Shown here in pieces: positions 4,587 through 32,218 of a stretch of DNA of 64,000 nt; the first letter of the stretch is position 1; each line of letters starts with the position of its first letter. Under the pieces are notes generated by a model. It had not been told where the DNA came from. It made no database searches and saw only the letters and a program-made list of their open reading frames with translations. A program made the position numbers and the translations under genes. The DNA is from an uncultured Gammaproteobacteria bacterium (lineage in GTDB: Bacteria > Patescibacteriota > Microgenomatia > Woykebacterales > RBG-16-39-9b): assembly GCA_964367355.1 (NCBI GenBank), contig CAYIWY010000005.1, positions 19,133-83,132 on the forward strand, in the 5' to 3' direction.

Positions 4587-5804
4587 ATGATTGCCCGAGC
4601 TTCCTGGATGCATTTGGACATGGATTGTTTCTTTGCATCGGTAGAAATTAAATTAAATCCGTCTCTCAAGGGTAAACCGGTTGTGGTTGGCGGTGTTAAT
4701 CCCCAGGGGAAAAATGTTCCCCGCGGTGTGATTGCCACTGCTTCTTACGAAGCCCGTAAATTCGGTTGTAAGAGTGGTATGCCGCTCTTTAAAGCACTGC
4801 AGCTTTGTCCGGATGCAATCGTCGTTGGTGGGCACTACGAGGATTACATCGATTGTTCTGACCAGGTGATGCAGATCGCTGCAAGATACGCTCCCAAAGT
4901 CGAGCAGATCGGTATTGATGAGGCTTTTTTAGATTTCTCAAATACTGAAATACTTTACCCCGATTTAAGAATAGTTGCTGAAAAAATTCGGGCTGATATT
5001 AAAAAAGAAATCGGGATAACCGCTTCGATTGGCCTAGCGGCAACTAAAGTCGCGGCTAAAGTTGGCAGCGATTTTAATAAACCGGATGGTTTTACTTATG
5101 TTAAGGAGGGAACAGAAAAATCATTTCTCGCTCCCCTACCACTACGTGATTTACCTGGGATTGGCTATAAAATGGAAGAATATTTCCACAACCTTGGAGT
5201 GACAACTTTAGGACAATTAGCCGCTGTACCTTTCAAAAAAATCGAAAACTGGGGCAAGTTTGCCATTAACCTTTGGGAAGCAGCCAATGGTGTTGACAAC
5301 ATTTGGTTTCATCCCAGTGCAACAGTGAAATCAATTTCCAGAAGCGAAACTTTTTATAAAGATACGCCGGATGAAAATTTTATTTTGGCAATGCTAAGAA
5401 AGTTAACTGAAAGTGTTGGAACCGAAGCTAGGGCTGAGGGTTATTTCGGTCGAACGGTCCACCTCACGATTCGCTACAAAGATTTTCGGACGGTTTCCCG
5501 CCAGCGCGTCCTGACTAAACCAACCAATGTCACCAAAGAGATTTACGATCTTGGGGAAATTTTATTAAAAGAACTTTGGGACAGCAAAACTCCGTTGCGT
5601 TTGGTGGGAATTGGTTTAACTCAGTTTGGTAGTGAAATAACTCAACTGTCTTTGTTTGACCAAGCTCATGACAAGCGGTTGGAACTGGAGAAACGCATCG
5701 ATTGTTTAAGAAAGAAGTATGGTATGCAAGCCGTTAATCCTCTTGCCTTGTTATATTTAGATCCGAGTGTCAGACAATTTAAGGGTAAAGCGTTTTATAC
5801 TTGA
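4587..5804 (+). CDS. dinB: DNA polymerase IV (Y-family)
   Basis: 405 aa; MHLDMDCFFASVE start motif and overall Y-family pattern. Confidence 0.9.
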   Translation: MIARASWMHLDMDCFFASVEIKLNPSLKGKPVVVGGVNPQGKNVPRGVIATASYEARKFGCKSGMPLFKALQLCPDAIVVGGHYEDYIDCSDQVMQIAARYAPKVEQIGIDEAFLDFSNTEILYPDLRIVAEKIRADIKKEIGITASIGLAATKVAAKVGSDFNKPDGFTYVKEGTEKSFLAPLPLRDLPGIGYKMEEYFHNLGVTTLGQLAAVPFKKIENWGKFAINLWEAANGVDNIWFHPSATVKSISRSETFYKDTPDENFILAMLRKLTESVGTEARAEGYFGRTVHLTIRYKDFRTVSRQRVLTKPTNVTKEIYDLGEILLKELWDSKTPLRLVGIGLTQFGSEITQLSLFDQAHDKRLELEKRIDCLRKKYGMQAVNPLALLYLDPSVRQFKGKAFYT

Positions 5805-5844
5805 CTACTCGAACCAGAACAATCTAATATAACCTATATTACAA

Positions 5845-6438
5845 GTGTCTGACACAAGTGTGAGAAATAATAGAAATTTTCAAATAAATTCTGTTCACCA
5901 CCTTATTACAAAAGGCAATAACCAAGATATATTTCTTGACGATCGTGATTTCAACCGGTATATCTTTAGCCTAAGGAAATTTTCTAAGAGATTAAGTGTA
6001 AGGATCTTAGCCTTTTGTTTAATGCCAAACCATGTTCATATACTTGCCAGGCAAGATTCGGAAATAAGCTTATCTAAATTTATGCAGACTCTTTCCACTG
6101 CATATGCCAACTATTTCAATACTCGCTACAAGCGACAGGGCCATCTTTTCGAAGCTAGATTCAAGAATATTGAGGTTACTACCGATGAATATTTAATTCA
6201 CTTGAGCAGATACATTCATCTCAACCCCTCTAGTTCCCAAATAGTGCAAAGTCCGCAGCATTATAAATGGGGTAGTTACAAGCACTATTTAGGGAATGGT
6301 AGTTTAGATTTTATTGACGAGAGAATTATTCTTGCTTATTTTTCCAAAGACAATCCCAGAAGGGATTACCAAGAGTTTGTTGAATCAAGAATTGAATATC
6401 AAAAAGACATTAGCTTGCAAAAACTATTACTAGAATGA
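5845..6438 (+). mobile_element. IS200-like Y1 transposase / REP-associated tyrosine transposase (RAYT)
   Basis: 197 aa; LMPNHVHIL...YANYFNTRYKRQGHLFEARF (HUH plus Tyr motifs). GTG start overlaps palindrome GTGTCTGACAC (5846-5856); near-copy GTGTCAGGCAC at 6453-6463 downstream. Confidence 0.7.
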
Positions 6439-6491
6439 ACTTATAGTTCAAGTGTCAGGCACCCGATTCTAAATGTATTTGAAAAATTGAG

Positions 6492-6527
6492 AAAAAAAAG
6501 AGCTCAACACATGGGTGTGGTGAGCTC
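6492..6527 (-). terminator. strong rho-independent terminator oriented for minus-strand transcription
   Basis: hairpin gagctcaacacatgggtgtggtgagctc (7-bp stem) preceded on plus strand by A8, which is U8 after the hairpin on the minus strand. Confidence 0.6.
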
Positions 6528-7682
6528 TGGGGGCTAGGTACTACATCTCTCTACTCTCCTCTGGTTTTGTCCTCAGCAGTCGAAACTGTTGAAGCCTTTG
6601 GTTAAATCTGCGGCAGGAGCTGACTTATTAAATTAAAGCTTTGCTCATAACTGCCGCCGTAGTTAACAATTGGTGAGGGTCAACTTCTCAGAACTGTCAC
6701 TCTGAAAAGCCCATGCCATTTCGCTGGTGATGAAATGGACCGCTCTGCGATGGATAACTACTTCCGGAAACGGGCGTTTTACCCTTGGCCAAGAAGCTGC
6801 GAGTGAAGTGAACCCTAGGAGTACACTTACCGTTCACTTGCATCAAATCCACTTTTTTGTTAAAGACACCATCGATCGCCAGGGTCACTGGAGTCGAATA
6901 GTGCTACTCCCATCCTGCTAACAGCTCGCAGAAGTGAAGCTAAATTTGTGCCGTATGTTTTCGACATCCCACCAACGTGAGTCTATCTCAACACTTAAGA
7001 ACCTCGCAGTCCCGGTTGCGGCACCAACCAGAATCCAAACACTCCTAAGGTCCAGTTCCCAGATCACGAGGACTAGGTTGACTTCCCTTTTAACGCTCTT
7101 GACGACCATTTTTCAGATCAAGCGTCGGAGTGAAGGAAACCAAAAGTTAAGTCGACAGCCGCTCGTCATTATTACCCTGCATTGTGATCGAAACCACTTT
7201 GCTAGGCCGCAAGAGATGACTTGGCGTTAGAACTCTTTGCGTTTTTTACACTGTCGACTCCCGCAAGCAGATCCGAAGACCTGATTGTAGGTTTTGGATC
7301 GCCGAGGTGAAGGTTGACTAACACGTTGGGGCCCCGCTGTTGAGCGCTTATCCCACTTCACACCTTCGGCGAACTATGAACCAGGATGACCATCGAAGAC
7401 ACGAAGGTCCGCGACGGTTCTGTCCCGGTAGCAAAATTAACCCGGTCAGTTGGTTTGTCCCTTTCTCAGCTCGCGAAGCCAAGAAAGAGCTCCTGGTAAT
7501 CGCGGCCGCGAATATCCAAGAGGGGTGTCTAGAGTCTTGCAATTGTGCAAGTACTCAACCAACCAAAAAGACACTCCTGGAAAAAAGACCGGGTCCCCCT
7601 GCGCAGAGGAACTTGTCGCTAAAATGTTAGAAACAAATTTCTCCGCACAAAGGTTTTTTCTTACTTCATTTTTTAAAGTACG
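6492..7682 (-). ncRNA. candidate large (about 1.2 kb) structured non-coding RNA, unknown family
   Basis: 50-57% GC versus about 37% in flanking genes. No ORF longer than 98 aa on either strand; the small ORFs overlap on both strands. Bounded by a consensus promoter (7689-7717, minus) and the terminator at 6492-6527. Many local stems, e.g. gagtacttgcacaattgcaagactc and cgcggccgcg. Confidence 0.35.
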
Positions 7683-7688
7683 TTTTTC

Positions 7689-7717
7689 TTTATAACACAT
7701 TTGGCAAGAAATGTCAA
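7689..7717 (-). promoter_or_regulatory. minus-strand sigma70 promoter TTGACA, 17-nt spacer, TATAAA
   Basis: plus strand tttata 7689-7694 and tgtcaa 7712-7717, exactly 17 nt apart. Confidence 0.5.
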
Positions 7718-14129: not shown

Positions 14130-14347
14130 GGTACCTCCCTGCCAGTGCTTGCTTGTTTAACTTAAGGATACGCCTCGCAAATTTTGATTGTCAAGAAAGT
14201 TTGTTCCAGTATCCACACTCTTAGTTCGAGGGTCAGGCCCGTAGGCGTAGTTTGTTTAGCGAAGAGTAAAGGTTTGCTTTTTCAGTAGGCTTGAATTAAC
14301 ATTATTCACAATATGCTGCTAAAGCATCAGTAATTTGAAGATAAATT

Positions 14348-27825: not shown

Positions 27826-28425
27826 ATGCTAAAAAAATTGCTACTTTTCACCTTCGCGATATTAGTAATTTTAACAATTGGCATAGTTGTGTTTAACCCA
27901 ATTGAGAGAATGCGTGAATCGCGTGATACAACCAGAGTCAATGATTTAACCTCCATAAAAAAAGCGATTGATATCTATATTAACAATAACGCTAAAGATA
28001 TTGCTGCCAATCCTGGATTACTTTGTTCAAACTGTAGTGTCGGAAAAGAAGTCTTTTCCTACCGTTCAATCAAACTTATAGTATCAGTGTCAGACACTGG
28101 TCTAACAACCGTCGAAAAGCATAGTCTCTATGTTAATGCTACTGGTTGGCTTCCGCTCGATTTAGCCCGTAACGCTAGGCTTGGACAGACTCCACTGAAG
28201 GTTTTGCCGCTTGACCCGCTGGAAAAAGGTTACTCTATTCGCACCAAACTACCATTTTTTAGCAAAGAAGAAAACTTTGTCTACACTTATACTGCCGGAA
28301 TCGACAATAAATATAAACTAACTGCTAAGTTGGAGAGTAAAAAAGGCCTCGAAAAAGCAAAAAATGATGGTGGGACGCTCGATGATCGGATTGAAGTCGG
28401 GACAGATCTGACACTTAAACCATGA
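27826..28425 (+). CDS. membrane-anchored pilin-like/hypothetical protein
   Basis: 199 aa; N-terminal TM followed by RDTTRVNDLTSIKKAIDIY resembling a pseudopilin helix, but no G-F-T-L-I-E motif; contains REP palindrome at 28086-28098. Confidence 0.4.
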   Translation: MLKKLLLFTFAILVILTIGIVVFNPIERMRESRDTTRVNDLTSIKKAIDIYINNNAKDIAANPGLLCSNCSVGKEVFSYRSIKLIVSVSDTGLTTVEKHSLYVNATGWLPLDLARNARLGQTPLKVLPLDPLEKGYSIRTKLPFFSKEENFVYTYTAGIDNKYKLTAKLESKKGLEKAKNDGGTLDDRIEVGTDLTLKP

Positions 28426-28697
28426 TTAGGTCGTTTTGTTTTGTCTCGCTTAACGCAATGCGCGTAAAGCGGATTAAAACCGCCGTTGGATTAGTCAGCG
28501 TCAAGAAAATTGAGTTTTGTAAACTGGTTCCGAAGGAAAATTTTTCAACTGTTTGACGCTTCTTTGAAGAGGAGTTTTGGAAAATTAAGTGAACAAAACG
28601 AGATTTTTAGCTGGAGGATCCAAGGCGGCAGTTTGGTTCAACCTTTGCTGTCAAAGGTTGCAATAAATAAGAAATTGATTAGAAATTAGTTAAAGCA

Positions 28698-28761
28698 TAA
28701 TACTTGACGCTTGATACCTGATACCAGTCGCTTGATACTTGACACATGATACTTGATACCC
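28698..28761. repeat. degenerate tandem array of T(T)GA(T/C)AC units (six or more copies) spanning the pilD start codon
   Basis: atacttgacgcttgatacctgataccagtcgcttgatacttgacacatgatacttgataccc; inverse copy (gtatcaag) plus tandem 14-mer at 29681-29711 on the other side of pilD. Confidence 0.6.
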
Positions 28762-29648
28762 TCTTTATTATATTTATCTTTCTTTTCGGTGCCGCCATCG
28801 GCTCATTCTTAAACGTAGTTATTCTTAGACTTCACTCAGGTAGAACCCTCGGAGGCCGTTCGCAGTGCCCACACTGTCACCACACGCTGGCAACGCTTGA
28901 TTTAATTCCAATCCTAAGTTACCTATTATTATCGGGCAAATGCCGCTATTGCGGCCATAAATTGTCGATCCAATACCCGTTGGTTGAGCTGACCGCAGCG
29001 ATCTTGTTTACAATCGCTTTTCTCTCTTGGGGTCAGGCCGCCTTTGGGTGTCAGACACTCATCCCCCAGTGTCTGACACCGGTCAATCTTTCATCTTTAA
29101 TCTTTAATCTTTTCCTCGTTTCAGTTCTAATCGTCATTTCAGTTTATGATCTTAAGTGGGGTCTGGTTCCCGATAAAATAATACTACCAGCTAGTGTAAT
29201 TGCCTTTGGATATCAATTATTAACCTTTGTCATTGCGAGTGTAACGAAGCAATCTAATTTGTCATCTCGAGGACTCTTAGACGAGAGATCTCAAGGATTT
29301 CTCTCTTCGTTCGAAATGACACTTTTACCCAATCTATTCACTGCCTTTGGTATTGGCTTATTCTTCTTTCTAATAATTCTTTTCACAAAAGGCAAAGGCA
29401 TGGGAGGCGGAGACTTTAAACTAAGCATATTTATAGGACTTGCCTTAGGTTGGCCGCTAGCCTTGGTCGCTGTCTTTTTGGGTTTCTTGACAGGTGCCTT
29501 GGGGGCTGTTATGCTTATATTGTTAGGCAAGAAAAGCTTCAAGCAAACAGTTCCTTTTGGACCGTTTTTAGCTTTAGGAAGCTTGCTTGCAATACTAGTA
29601 GGAAACCAGATTTTGGAATTATATCTGAAATCTATGGGGTTAAAATAA
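28746..29648 (+). CDS. pilD: prepilin peptidase (A24 family) PilD, with in-frame repeat-element insertions
   Basis: 300 aa; CPHCHH...CRYCGHK zinc motif; catalytic Asp in VYDLKWGLVPD and GMGGGDFK; extra segments GCQTLIPQCLTP (29047-29080 palindrome pair) and KQSNLSSRGLLDERSQGFLSSFEMTLL (29261-29321 element). Confidence 0.85.
   Translation: MILDTLFIIFIFLFGAAIGSFLNVVILRLHSGRTLGGRSQCPHCHHTLATLDLIPILSYLLLSGKCRYCGHKLSIQYPLVELTAAILFTIAFLSWGQAAFGCQTLIPQCLTPVNLSSLIFNLFLVSVLIVISVYDLKWGLVPDKIILPASVIAFGYQLLTFVIASVTKQSNLSSRGLLDERSQGFLSSFEMTLLPNLFTAFGIGLFFFLIILFTKGKGMGGGDFKLSIFIGLALGWPLALVAVFLGFLTGALGAVMLILLGKKSFKQTVPFGPFLALGSLLAILVGNQILELYLKSMGLK
29047..29080. repeat. inverted pair of the 11-nt REP palindrome GTGTC(A/T)GACAC inside the pilD ORF
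   Basis: ggtgtcagacact-catcccc-cagtgtctgacacc; same 11-mer flanks the RAYT gene (5846-5856, 6453-6463) and occurs at 28086-28098. Confidence 0.7.
29261..29321. repeat. about 60-nt imperfect palindromic element (MITE/RPE-like), copy A, in-frame inside pilD
   Basis: gtcatctcgagga...gacgagagatctc...cgttcgaaatgacac; second copy at 29737-29796. Confidence 0.65.
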
Positions 29649-29736: not shown

Positions 29737-29796
29737 GTCATCTCGAGGAATATTTTGACGAGAGATCTCTCACTCGCCTACTCGTTCGAGATGACA
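29737..29796. repeat. about 60-nt palindromic element, copy B, in the pilD to pilin intergenic spacer
   Basis: gtcatctcgaggaatattttgacgagagatctctcactcgcctactcgttcgagatgacac; preceded by tandem 14-mer atcaagaatcatg(a/c) twice (29684-29711). Confidence 0.65.
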
Positions 29797-29882
29797 CCTG
29801 TTTTCAATTCTGAATTCATAATTGGTACAAATATAAGTCAGCTTATAATTCATAATTCAAATCTGAGAGGGGGTGAGAACGT

Positions 29883-32130: not shown

Positions 32131-32218
32131 AGGTAGGTGCATAATACTTGATTGGTCAGAGTTGATACTCTATAATGAAGTTAGACATTATGAGTTTCTT
32201 AACGATATAATTTACGTA

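What the first reader, a model, noticed from the sequence alone, without database searches (positions are those of the whole stretch)
5821..6470. RAYT/IS200-like Y1 transposase flanked by an 11-nt REP palindrome that has spread into coding regions
The Y1 (HUH) transposase has its GTG start inside the palindrome GTGTCTGACAC (5846-5856). A near-copy, GTGTCAGGCAC, lies just past its stop (6453-6463). This is the arrangement described for REP-associated tyrosine transposases. The same palindrome recurs at 28086-28098 (inside the pilin-like gene) and as an inverted doublet at 29047-29080 (inside pilD). That suggests an active or recently active REP/RAYT system in a small genome.
Basis: partly seen in the sequence, partly recalled or inferred. 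Interest (0 to 1): 0.55.

Follow-up and report, generated by a model that had tools for sequence, protein, structure and literature searches.

The report
Tyrosine transposase gene with cognate palindromes
A single-copy HUH/tyrosine "transposase-like" gene in a Woykebacteria (CPR) genome is bracketed by copies of a short palindrome that also sits, in frame, inside two pilus genes. This is a real but low-copy member of the known RAYT/TIRYT world and shows no sign of a recent burst of activity.

Summary
GTGTCWGACAC occurs 6 times at up to 1 mismatch, against 0.37 expected. The ORF is a Y1 HUH protein: Pfam Y1_Tnp, best PDB match E. coli TnpA_REP (4ER8) by both sequence and fold.

Corrections:
- The real start is most likely GTG 5860, giving 192 aa like all orthologs. 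The palindrome then lies 4 nt upstream of the start, not across it.
- The repeat unit is about 39 nt, not 11.
- Eight Woykebacteria genomes share one architecture: 1-2 units upstream (two in seven of the eight), a promoter-like site between or beside them, and 1-2 units downstream. All units point the same way as the gene. This is unlike classical REPtrons, whose REPs are inverted and carry a GTAG head.
- Stem position 2 covaries perfectly (T-A in 14 copies, G-C in 14).
- The protein motifs (NHVH, FQ, YIHLNP, WSS) fit TnpA-Y1 subclass 2.1, which corresponds to RAYT Group 1 and the TIRYTs. The core is a palindromic form of the TIRYT motif GGGGWSAS.

Ortholog comparison confirms in-frame copies in pilD and in a pilin-like gene. 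These copies are shared with other species, so they are old, and their synonymous sites are conserved. Dispersed copies are few: 3 sites in about 77 kb.

Verdict: a new member of a known kind, of modest interest.

Side finding: a conserved, structured, ORF-free RNA candidate of about 1.2 kb lies next to the gene on the minus strand.

The parts
5751..5789 (+). Repeat unit A (core GTGTCAGACAA, 5767-5777). It overlaps the last codons of dinB (ORF 4587-5804).
   Evidence: Covariance model R1, 29 bits on +; core match; the same position relative to dinB in L006 and L093.
5801..5830 (+). Sigma-70-like promoter candidate TTGACT-18-TAATAT, between units A and B.
   Evidence: Consensus scan. TTGACA-like hexamers sit at the same place between or beside the upstream units in the orthologs (sequences). 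Function is inferred.
5829..5867 (+). Repeat unit B (core GTGTCTGACAC, 5845-5855). It ends 4 nt before the probable start codon.
   Evidence: R1, 28.5 bits; exact core.
5860..6438 (+). Y1 HUH gene, 192 aa from GTG 5860. HuH motif NHVH, catalytic-Tyr motif RYIHLNP.
   Evidence: Pfam Y1_Tnp 55 bits; alignment with orthologs fixes the start and the invariant H58, H60 and Y118; AlphaFold pLDDT 90; fold match to 4ER8, TM 0.65/0.74.
6436..6474 (+). Repeat unit C (core GTGTCAGGCAC, 6452-6462), starting inside the stop codon.
   Evidence: R1, 31.8 bits on + and 22.1 on -; 25-nt direct repeat with unit B, 80% identical.
14214..14252 (+). Solitary intergenic unit of the other core type (GGGTCAGGCCC). 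Its flanks resemble the unit downstream of the L094 gene.
   Evidence: R1, 31.8 bits; sequence comparison; intergenic by the gene calls of L001.
28071..28109 (+). Unit D inside the pilin-like gene 27826-28425, in frame (encodes ...IVSVSDTGL...).
   Evidence: R1, 22.4 bits; not in the training set. The core is present in L095 and L096; their orthologs carry the VSDT segment while L097 lacks about 9 residues there.
29047..29080 (.). Inverted doublet inside pilD (28746-29648), in frame (encodes GCQTLIPQCLTP). A degenerate third core, GGGTCAGGCCG, lies 21 nt upstream at 29027.
   Evidence: Exact cores. As ssDNA the doublet folds at -14 kcal/mol, z = -5.2. PilD alignment: present in P0123, P0125 and P0126, absent in P0122, P0124, P0127 and others.

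Best explanation
This is a REPtron/TIRtron-type unit. It consists of a single-copy HUH/Y1 single-strand-DNA endonuclease-ligase of the RAYT lineage (TnpA-Y1 subclass 2.1-like, a short form without the C-terminal HTH) and its cognate repeat of about 39 nt. The heart of the repeat is the palindrome G(T/G)GTC-W-GAC(A/C)C.

Shown:
- the enzyme fold and the catalytic motifs;
- the conserved arrangement: 1-2 units upstream (two in seven of the eight loci), a promoter-like site, the gene, then 1-2 units downstream, all on the gene's strand;
- co-variation of the palindrome between genomes;
- relocation of the whole unit between three chromosomal sites in related genomes;
- a few solitary or paired units elsewhere, including in-frame copies in pilD and a pilin-like gene.

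Inferred, by analogy with E. coli TnpA_REP and IS608 TnpA: the protein binds the small hairpin that the palindrome forms on single-stranded DNA, for example at the replication fork. It reads the asymmetric flanks (TTTAGCTTCAA on the 5' side, CTTAGG on the 3' side), cuts through a 5'-phosphotyrosine intermediate, and occasionally rejoins the piece elsewhere. On that view only insertions that keep the frame in tolerant loops survive inside genes.

Activity is low and the system is old, not recently expanded.
For: Protein:
- Pfam Y1_Tnp, 55 bits.
- NCBIfam REP_Tyr_transpos is the best hit, ahead of IS200.
- The profile of the family hits 4ER8 TnpA_REP across both the HuH and the Y regions, whereas IS200-type TnpAs match only the N-terminal half.
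- The predicted structure (pLDDT 90) is closest to 4ER8.
- H58, H60 and Y118 are invariant in 22 relatives.
- The motifs NHVH / FQ / YIHLNP / WSS match the Table 1 row for subclass 2.1 in PMC6006769.

Repeats:
- Enrichment of 6 observed against 0.37 expected.
- All 8 Woykebacteria loci have 1-2 units upstream and 1-2 downstream.
- Stem pair 18-26 is G-C in 14 copies, T-A in 14, and unpaired in none.
- Model scores favour the gene's strand for all but two flanking units, where the two strands are within 2 bits.

Mobility of the unit:
- recG and rpmF are adjacent in L009, but about 0.95 kb containing 4 units plus the gene separates them in L007.
- The gene lies after dinB in 4 genomes and inside the pilus cluster in 3.

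Same core in other phyla, next to distant homologs:
- L023, L062, L066, L079, L090 and L130 carry it.
- 23 perfect palindromic cores lie within 400 bp of the gene in 7 of 80 loci, against 6 in the remaining ~1.1 Mb or so.
- At least 120 metagenome loci carry doublets; my estimate of the chance expectation is only a few.

Intragenic copies: ortholog comparisons.
Against: - No biochemical evidence exists for this protein.
- Single units are thermodynamically marginal hairpins: -0.2 to -6 kcal/mol, not better than shuffles.
- The palindrome symmetry, and its covariation, would equally fit a double-stranded site bound by a dimer.
- There are few dispersed copies, and no polymorphic insertion was seen within this species; L002-L005 are 100% identical to the window.
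- RAYT identity is a flat 54-68% even between genomes whose DinB is 89% identical. Simple vertical co-descent does not explain this.
- The subclass assignment rests on motif signatures only.
Confidence: 0.72

Rival explanations
1. It is an autonomous IS200-like insertion sequence of about 0.73 kb (5751-6474). Units A/B form the left-end hairpins and unit C the right-end hairpin. The element moves as a whole by peel-and-paste, and the solitary units are footprints or miniature derivatives.
For: The flanking units lie on one strand, as do the LE and RE hairpins of IS200/IS605 elements (my background knowledge). Its 0.73 kb length is IS200-sized (my background knowledge). The whole unit occupies three different sites in related genomes and appears as an insertion between rpmF and recG in L007. 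Two hosts with 89% identical DinB carry genes only 56% identical at the same site, as if the cassette had been replaced.
Against: There is one copy in the 64-kb window. No near-identical copy is reported in any relative; cluster sizes are 1-5 members, seen as the same contig context. The Y motif is Y---NP rather than the Y---Q of IS200 transposases. NCBIfam transpos_IS200 scores 26 bits, below its cut-off of 55. The gene persists next to dinB in four diverged genomes.
Confidence: 0.13
2. The palindrome is a double-stranded operator or other host signal, for example for autoregulation or termination. It would be bound by a dimeric protein and not mobilised at all. The copies in the pil genes would then be convergent or functional sites.
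For: Single units fold poorly as hairpins. One unit sits between the promoter-like site and the start codon in every ortholog. The intragenic cores are conserved at 14 of 14 synonymous positions, against 62-78% outside them.
Against: The units share about 15 nt of asymmetric flank beyond the palindrome, even inside the pilin-like gene, which points to common descent by copying. Orthologs lack the inserts. The same core forms dispersed doublet families in many unrelated genomes. The associated protein has the fold of an ssDNA hairpin-binding nuclease.
Confidence: 0.1
3. Chance recurrence of an 11-mer near an unrelated gene.
For: None beyond the small absolute numbers.
Against: 0 of 100 shuffles reach the observed count. 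The adjacency is conserved in 8 genomes with covariation.
Confidence: 0.01

Closest known systems
TIRYT / TIRtron (Di Nocera et al. 2013, PMC3733652), corresponding to TnpA-Y1 subclass 2.1 (Quentin et al. 2018, PMC6006769) and RAYT Group 1 (Bertels et al. 2017, PMC5581495)
   Same: The motif signature matches: NHVH, FQ, Y[IV]HLNP and the 'SS' tail. Copy number is low. The flanking repeats contain GGGTCWG, close to the TIR motif GGGGWSAS. Distant homologs L062 and L090 are flanked by GGGGTCWGACCCC in inverted orientation, and L090 has a C-terminal HTH. Relatives with the Bac_DnaA_C domain are 37-40% identical.
   Different: The protein is 192 aa and has no distal HTH domain. Each flanking unit is itself a palindrome, and the units are direct rather than terminal inverted repeats. 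The host is a CPR bacterium. Quentin et al. found no REP-like sequences near subclass 2.1 genes, whereas cognate units are obvious here.
E. coli TnpA_REP (RAYT, PDB 4ER8) and its REPtron
   Same: It is the best sequence and fold match. It shares the Y---NP motif, is a single-copy gene bracketed by its own palindromic repeats, and its repeats also occur elsewhere in the genome.
   Different: E. coli REPs have a 5' GT[AG]G head and long stems, flank the gene as inverted pairs, and number in the hundreds (the copy number is from my background knowledge). Here there is no GTAG head, the stems are 4-7 bp, the orientation is direct, and only a handful of copies are seen. The protein is below the NCBIfam equivalog cut-off.
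IS200/IS605 insertion sequences (IS200, IS608, ISDra2)
   Same: The HUH/Y1 fold is shared. Hairpins sit at both ends on the same strand, the size is about 0.7 kb, and one hairpin lies next to the translation start, as in IS200 (the IS200 and IS608 anatomy is from my background knowledge).
   Different: IS200/IS605 transposases have the Y---Q motif, high copy number and near-identical copies. None of these was seen here.
Rickettsia palindromic elements and intragenic REPs (Ogata et al. 2000, as summarised in PMC3733652)
   Same: Short palindromic repeats are inserted in frame in conserved genes. They are often dimers that add 10-30 residues in tolerant regions, and they are absent from orthologs.
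   Different: Here the repeats have an identifiable cognate Y1 gene. Only two genes are affected in the DNA examined.

Membership tests
HUH / Y1 transposase superfamily (Pfam PF01797) | Profile match above the curated cut-off | tested here: met
   55 bits against a cut-off of 23.
HUH / Y1 transposase superfamily (Pfam PF01797) | HuH motif and catalytic tyrosine, conserved and placed in the right fold | tested here: met
   NHVH (H58, H60) and Y118 are invariant in 22 sequences. The model (pLDDT 90) matches 4ER8 and the IS608/ISDra2 TnpAs.
RAYT / TnpA_REP (class 2 of TnpA-Y1) | Y---NP signature instead of the Y---Q of IS200 | tested here: met
   RYIHLNP; signature definition from PMC6006769.
RAYT / TnpA_REP (class 2 of TnpA-Y1) | NCBIfam REP_Tyr_transpos equivalog score | tested here: not met
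   65.1 bits, below the cut-off of 80.
RAYT / TnpA_REP (class 2 of TnpA-Y1) | Gene flanked by REPs with a 5' GT[AG]G head, in inverted orientation | tested here: not met
   Repeats do flank the gene, but without GT[AG]G and in direct orientation. Definition.
RAYT / TnpA_REP (class 2 of TnpA-Y1) | Cognate repeat abundant and dispersed, mostly extragenic | tested here: inconclusive
   Away from the gene there are 4 units at 3 sites in about 77 kb, and 3 of the 4 units are intragenic. The whole genome was not available.
RAYT / TnpA_REP (class 2 of TnpA-Y1) | Single copy per genome | tested here: inconclusive
   One copy in the 64-kb window. The rest of the genome was not seen.
TnpA-Y1 subclass 2.1 / TIRYT | Motifs NHVH or NH[YF]H; W[EQ]/FQ; YIELNP or Y[IV]HLNP; proximal 'SS' tail | tested here: met
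   NHVH, HLF(E/Q), YIHLNP and W-SS-Y in alignment A1, compared with Table 1. This is a motif comparison only; the authors' HMMs were not available.
TnpA-Y1 subclass 2.1 / TIRYT | Distal C-terminal HTH domain (Bac_DnaA_C, HTH_23/28) | tested here: not met
   No Pfam hit beyond residue 125. The tail is a single long helix in the model.
TnpA-Y1 subclass 2.1 / TIRYT | Flanking terminal inverted repeats carrying GGGGWSAS | tested here: inconclusive
   The core (A/G)G(G/T)GTCWG matches 6-7 of 8 positions and is palindromic. The units are direct, not inverted. Distant homologs L062 and L090 show the exact motif in inverted orientation.
IS200/IS605 insertion sequence | IS200-type transposase (NCBIfam transpos_IS200; Y---Q) | tested here: not met
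   26 bits, below the cut-off of 55. The motif is Y---NP.
IS200/IS605 insertion sequence | Several near-identical copies in a genome | tested here: inconclusive
   None in the window. The genome is incomplete.
In-frame intragenic palindromic elements (RPE-like) | Insert keeps the reading frame and is absent from orthologs | tested here: met
   pilD: 12 REP-encoded residues, with a net +7 aa against L096 and L097. Pilin-like gene: about 9 residues absent in L097.

The most novel reading that the evidence does not exclude
The palindromes may be more than leftover selfish DNA. The Y1 enzyme and its sites could be a domesticated single-strand-DNA processing system linked to the type IV pilus (DNA-uptake) locus of these CPR bacteria. 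The points that leave this open:
- The gene itself sits inside the pilus cluster in 3 of 8 relatives.
- In this genome the only intragenic sites found are in pilD and a pilin-like gene.
- Those sites have been kept across species with all 14 synonymous positions unchanged.
- They bracket a stretch of about 1 kb whose content differs between relatives (toxin-antitoxin and nuclease cassettes).

A second reading also stays open. GKGTC-N-GACMC may be a distinct, phylum-spanning class of REP, cognate to subclass 2.1 Y1 proteins, that earlier surveys missed because they required a GTAG head.
Probability: 0.12. Interest if true: 0.65.

Novelty: new member of a known kind. Interest (0 to 1): 0.36.

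Why it matters
- It places a RAYT/TIRYT-type system, with a clearly defined cognate repeat, in a reduced CPR genome.
- A Y1 subclass reported as lacking REPs does have cognate palindromes here, and the same core recurs from Patescibacteria to Actinomycetota and Gammaproteobacteria.
- It gives a clean pair of filled and empty orthologous sites for in-frame palindrome insertions in an essential pilus-processing enzyme.
- For annotation: the start codon is mis-called, and the extra residues in PilD and the pilin-like protein are repeat-derived.

None of this overturns current understanding of REP/RAYT biology.

Tried and rejected
It returned only distant homologs (30-44% identity) and not the Woykebacteria orthologs or the source genome.
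- The 11-mer alone is too short for a collection scan, so only doublets could be scanned. Two of those hits (L106, L165) are unrelated tandem repeats.
- A full-text search for the core strings found only primers and viral sequences, with no bacterial repeat literature. The supplements of Di Nocera et al. do not contain the strings.
- Rfam gave nothing for the gene-free stretch next to the gene.
- I first considered that units A and C are an inverted pair (I1). I rejected this after seeing that unit C is nearly symmetric and that all orthologous units are direct.
- The DNA boundary of a possible cassette replacement between the window and L094 is not sharp on the left side.

Full report
**What is in the sequence**

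The window comes from a 92.8-kb groundwater contig (Hain_H52) of a Candidatus Woykebacteria (CPR/Patescibacteria) genome. The palindrome GTGTCTGACAC is at 5845-5855 and GTGTCAGGCAC at 6452-6462. Both are one base lower than reported. GTGTCAGACAC lies at 28087-28097, and the inverted doublet lies at 29048-29058 and 29069-29079. At up to one mismatch the motif occurs 6 times against 0.37 expected, and no shuffle of 100 reaches 6.
- one at 5767-5777, inside the last codons of dinB;
- a variant unit (GGGTCAGGCCC) in an intergenic spacer at 14230.

The repeat is longer than 11 nt. About 15 nt of left flank (AACYTATAKT-N4) is shared by the copies at 5845, 6452 and 28087. A covariance model of 39 positions recovers the copy in the pilin-like gene full length, although that copy was not used to build the model (22.4 bits).

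**The protein**

The ORF matches Pfam Y1_Tnp (55 bits). In NCBIfam it scores 65 bits against REP_Tyr_transpos (cut-off 80) and 26 against transpos_IS200 (cut-off 55). The closest 17 relatives, from Woykebacteria-type metagenome bins, are 191-194 aa. All 21 aligned relatives start MRxxRxF, which aligns with GTG 5860 and not GTG 5845. The gene is therefore most likely 5860-6438 (192 aa), and the palindrome ends 4 nt upstream of it.

H58 and H60 (NHVH) and Y118 (RYIHLNP) are invariant. A profile of the family hits E. coli TnpA_REP (4ER8) across both motifs, while ISDra2-type transposases match only the N-terminal half. An AlphaFold model (pLDDT 90) is closest to 4ER8 (TM 0.65/0.74), followed by the IS608, ISDra2 and IS200 transposases.

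The motif set NHVH / FQ / Y[IV]HLNP / W-SS corresponds to subclass 2.1 of Quentin et al. 2018. That subclass equals Bertels' RAYT Group 1 and most of Di Nocera's TIRYTs. The present protein lacks the distal HTH domain of that subclass. Relatives that carry it (Bac_DnaA_C) are 37-40% identical.

**Comparative anatomy**

I fetched seven orthologous loci at 54-68% protein identity. Every one shows the same plan:
- one or two units upstream (two in seven of the eight loci), 75-92 nt apart where there are two, with a TTGACA-like -35 box between or beside them (in the window, TTGACT-18-TAATAT at 5801-5830);
- the gene;
- one unit 10-25 nt after the stop, and in some loci a second.

The consensus is TTTAGCTTCAA-G(K)GTC-W-GAC(M)C-YTAGGY. 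Four genomes use GTGTC/GACAC and four use GGGTC/GACCC. Across 28 copies, stem pair 2 is T-A 14 times, G-C 14 times and never unpaired. The structure beats all 500 shuffles for cells paired and for covariation score, and it beats every slid register.

By model score, all but two flanking units have the orientation of the gene; for those two the strands score within 2 bits. A simple consensus score agrees for 24 of 28 copies. This differs from the inverted REP pairs with a GT[AG]G head that define classical REPtrons. It resembles the same-strand end hairpins of IS200/IS605.

Single units are weak hairpins as ssDNA (-0.2 to -6 kcal/mol, not better than shuffles). The pilD doublet is a strong one (-14 kcal/mol, z = -5.2).

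**Is the unit mobile?**

The gene follows dinB in four genomes (window, L006, L093, L094). It lies among pilin genes of the type IV pilus cluster in three (L009, L091, L092) and between rpmF and recG in one (L007). In L009 recG and rpmF are 40 nt apart. In L007 they are separated by about 0.95 kb that consists of four units and the gene. The whole unit has therefore moved or been lost as a block.

Protein identity among the eight Y1 genes is a flat 54-68%, even between the window and L094, whose DinB and SNase neighbours are 89% identical. The solitary unit at 14230 in the window is of the L094 type. This suggests either fast evolution or replacement of the cassette at the same site. I could not decide between the two.

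**Abundance**

Only one Y1 gene lies in the window. With filters off, the model finds no units beyond the seven listed. It finds none in the further 4.2 kb and 9.7 kb of the same contig. It finds only one solitary unit (L093 2824) in about 100 kb around the orthologs. So this is a low-copy family, as described for TIR families of TIRtrons, and far from the hundreds of copies of enterobacterial or pseudomonad REPs. A genome-wide census was not possible.

**Copies inside genes**

In pilD the doublet encodes GCQTLIPQCLTP in a loop that varies in length among orthologs.
- The same peptide is present in P0123 (81% identical PilD), P0126 and P0125. P0125 carries a second one in another loop.
- It is absent from P0122, P0124, P0127, P0128 and others.
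- At the DNA level the filled alleles (window, L095) have 48 nt where the empty ones (L096, L097) have 27 nt, a net gain of 7 codons.

In the pilin-like gene the unit encodes ...VSVSDT.... It is present in L095 and L096, while L097 lacks about 9 residues there.

These insertions are shared by genomes 14-22% apart in these proteins, so they are old. Within the cores, all 14 third-codon positions of identical codons are unchanged, against 62-78% elsewhere in the same genes. Treated as independent, which they are not quite, that is roughly P = 0.004-0.008. This hints at constraint on the DNA itself. In-frame REPs in genes are already known from Rickettsia RPEs and from several REP families.

**Wider distribution**

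Most hits are 60-73% GC soil contigs with the extended palindrome GGTGTCWGACACC, usually as inverted pairs 5-8 nt apart. Several copies with identical flanks lie on different long contigs of one sample. One locus (L130) has a Y1 homolog bracketed by them.

Among 80 distant homologs from GTDB genomes, 7 have perfect palindromic cores of this kind within 400 bp of the gene: 23 cores in total, against 6 in the remaining ~1.1 Mb or so.
- In L062 and L090 (Actinomycetota) the flanks are GGGGTCWGACCCC in inverted orientation. This is the published TIRYT motif GGGGWSAS, and L090 has the HTH tail.
- In L023 the core also sits in frame inside the Y1 gene itself, encoding GSDP.

The strings do not occur in the searchable literature in a bacterial context.

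**Verdict**

The following should be corrected:
- the start codon;
- the size of the unit;
- the claim that the arrangement is the classical RAYT one (it is direct, has no GTAG head, and is subclass 2.1/TIRYT-like);
- the claim of recent activity.

The most likely mechanism is hairpin recognition and cleavage-ligation on single-stranded DNA. This is inferred from homology, not shown. I rate the finding a new member of a known kind.

**Things seen in passing**

Immediately downstream of the gene lies 1.2 kb with no ORF and raised G+C: 45-53% against 33-39% in the neighbouring stretches.
- On the minus strand I read TTGACA-17-TATAAA at 7716-7688 directly from the sequence. It is preceded by a TG and conserved in L093. 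The consensus scan did not list it because its sixth base is A rather than T.
- A 13-bp hairpin followed by T8 lies at 6528-6490 (I9).
- The 5' 270 nt fold with z = -7.3 on the minus strand against -3.8 on the plus strand.
- This segment is 84.5% identical to L093 although the two Y1 proteins are 54% identical.
- All 75 predicted pairs are kept in both genomes: 15 through one-sided changes and 3 through compensatory changes.
- Rfam has no match.

This looks like an undescribed large structured RNA and may deserve its own follow-up.

pilD also carries a second, unrelated palindromic element of about 60 nt in frame at 29261-29323. A second copy lies at 29737-29798.

Noticed in passing
window 6490-7690, minus strand: An ORF-free stretch of about 1.2 kb with raised G+C lies between the Y1 gene and the AdoMet_dc gene. 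On the minus strand, TTGACA-17-TATAAA at 7716-7688 is read directly from the sequence (the consensus scan did not list it). An intrinsic-terminator-like hairpin with a T8 run lies at 6528-6490. The 5' 270 nt fold with z = -7.3 and are 84.5% identical to L093. All 75 predicted pairs are kept in both genomes, 3 of them through compensatory changes. There is no Rfam match. This is a candidate for a new large structured RNA.
   Followed up: partly
window 29261-29323 and 29737-29798: A second palindromic element of about 60 nt has terminal inverted repeats TGTCATCTCGA...TCGARATGACA. One copy is in frame inside pilD, encoding LSSRGLLDERSQGFLSSFEMT. That insert is also present in PilD of P0122 and P0124 and absent in 12 other orthologs. 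The other copy is in the spacer after pilD.
   Followed up: partly
window 29232-29258: A small hairpin, gtcATTGCgagtgtaacgaaGCAATct, lies in pilD just before the 60-nt element and encodes VIASVTKQSN. It resembles widespread small palindromic elements I recall from other genomes. Not tested.
   Followed up: no
window 7810; ends of L002, L003, L004 and L093: Three Logan contigs of the same strain, and the contig of a different species (L093), all end at the homologous position (...GTCGCTCGTATACGT). The metaSPAdes contig reads through it. This may be a repeat boundary or a structural polymorphism.
   Followed up: no
window 28425-28746 and the equivalent spacer in L092, L095, L096, L097: The spacer between the pilin-like gene and pilD varies between relatives. 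It is 320 nt of non-coding DNA here, a DUF433 plus Mut7-C/DUF5615 pair in L095, two small ORFs in L097 and nothing in L096. At the comparable position next to the presumed pilD, L092 has a PDDEXK_3 gene. In the window the two REP-bearing sites bracket this stretch.
   Followed up: no
window 28695-28759 and 32139-32168: Overlapping repeats of CTTGATAC / GATACTTGAC lie immediately upstream of, and across, the pilD start. A related 30-mer lies 3.4 kb further on (family D2).
   Followed up: no
L023 10130 and 10397; L066 10417: In distant homologs (a gammaproteobacterial MAG and Howlettbacteria) the cognate core GGGTCSGACCC lies inside the Y1 gene itself. In L023 it reads in frame as GSDP. In-frame inserts of this kind have been reported so far for subclass 2.4.
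   Followed up: partly
L136, L168, L170, L177 (JGI sample Ga0182736) and many other metagenome loci: GGTGTCAGACACCCTTCGGGGTGTCTGACACCTGG-type inverted doublets recur on different long, high-GC contigs of one sample. More than 100 metagenome loci carry doublets of the same core. This suggests a widespread REPIN-like family built on the palindrome.
   Followed up: partly
L218 1941-3455 (same contig, beyond the window end): A large serine recombinase (Resolvase/Recombinase/Zn_ribbon) is followed by about 8 kb dense in toxin-antitoxin-like small genes (HicA/HicB, MqsA, DUF4258). This may be an integrated element.
   Followed up: no
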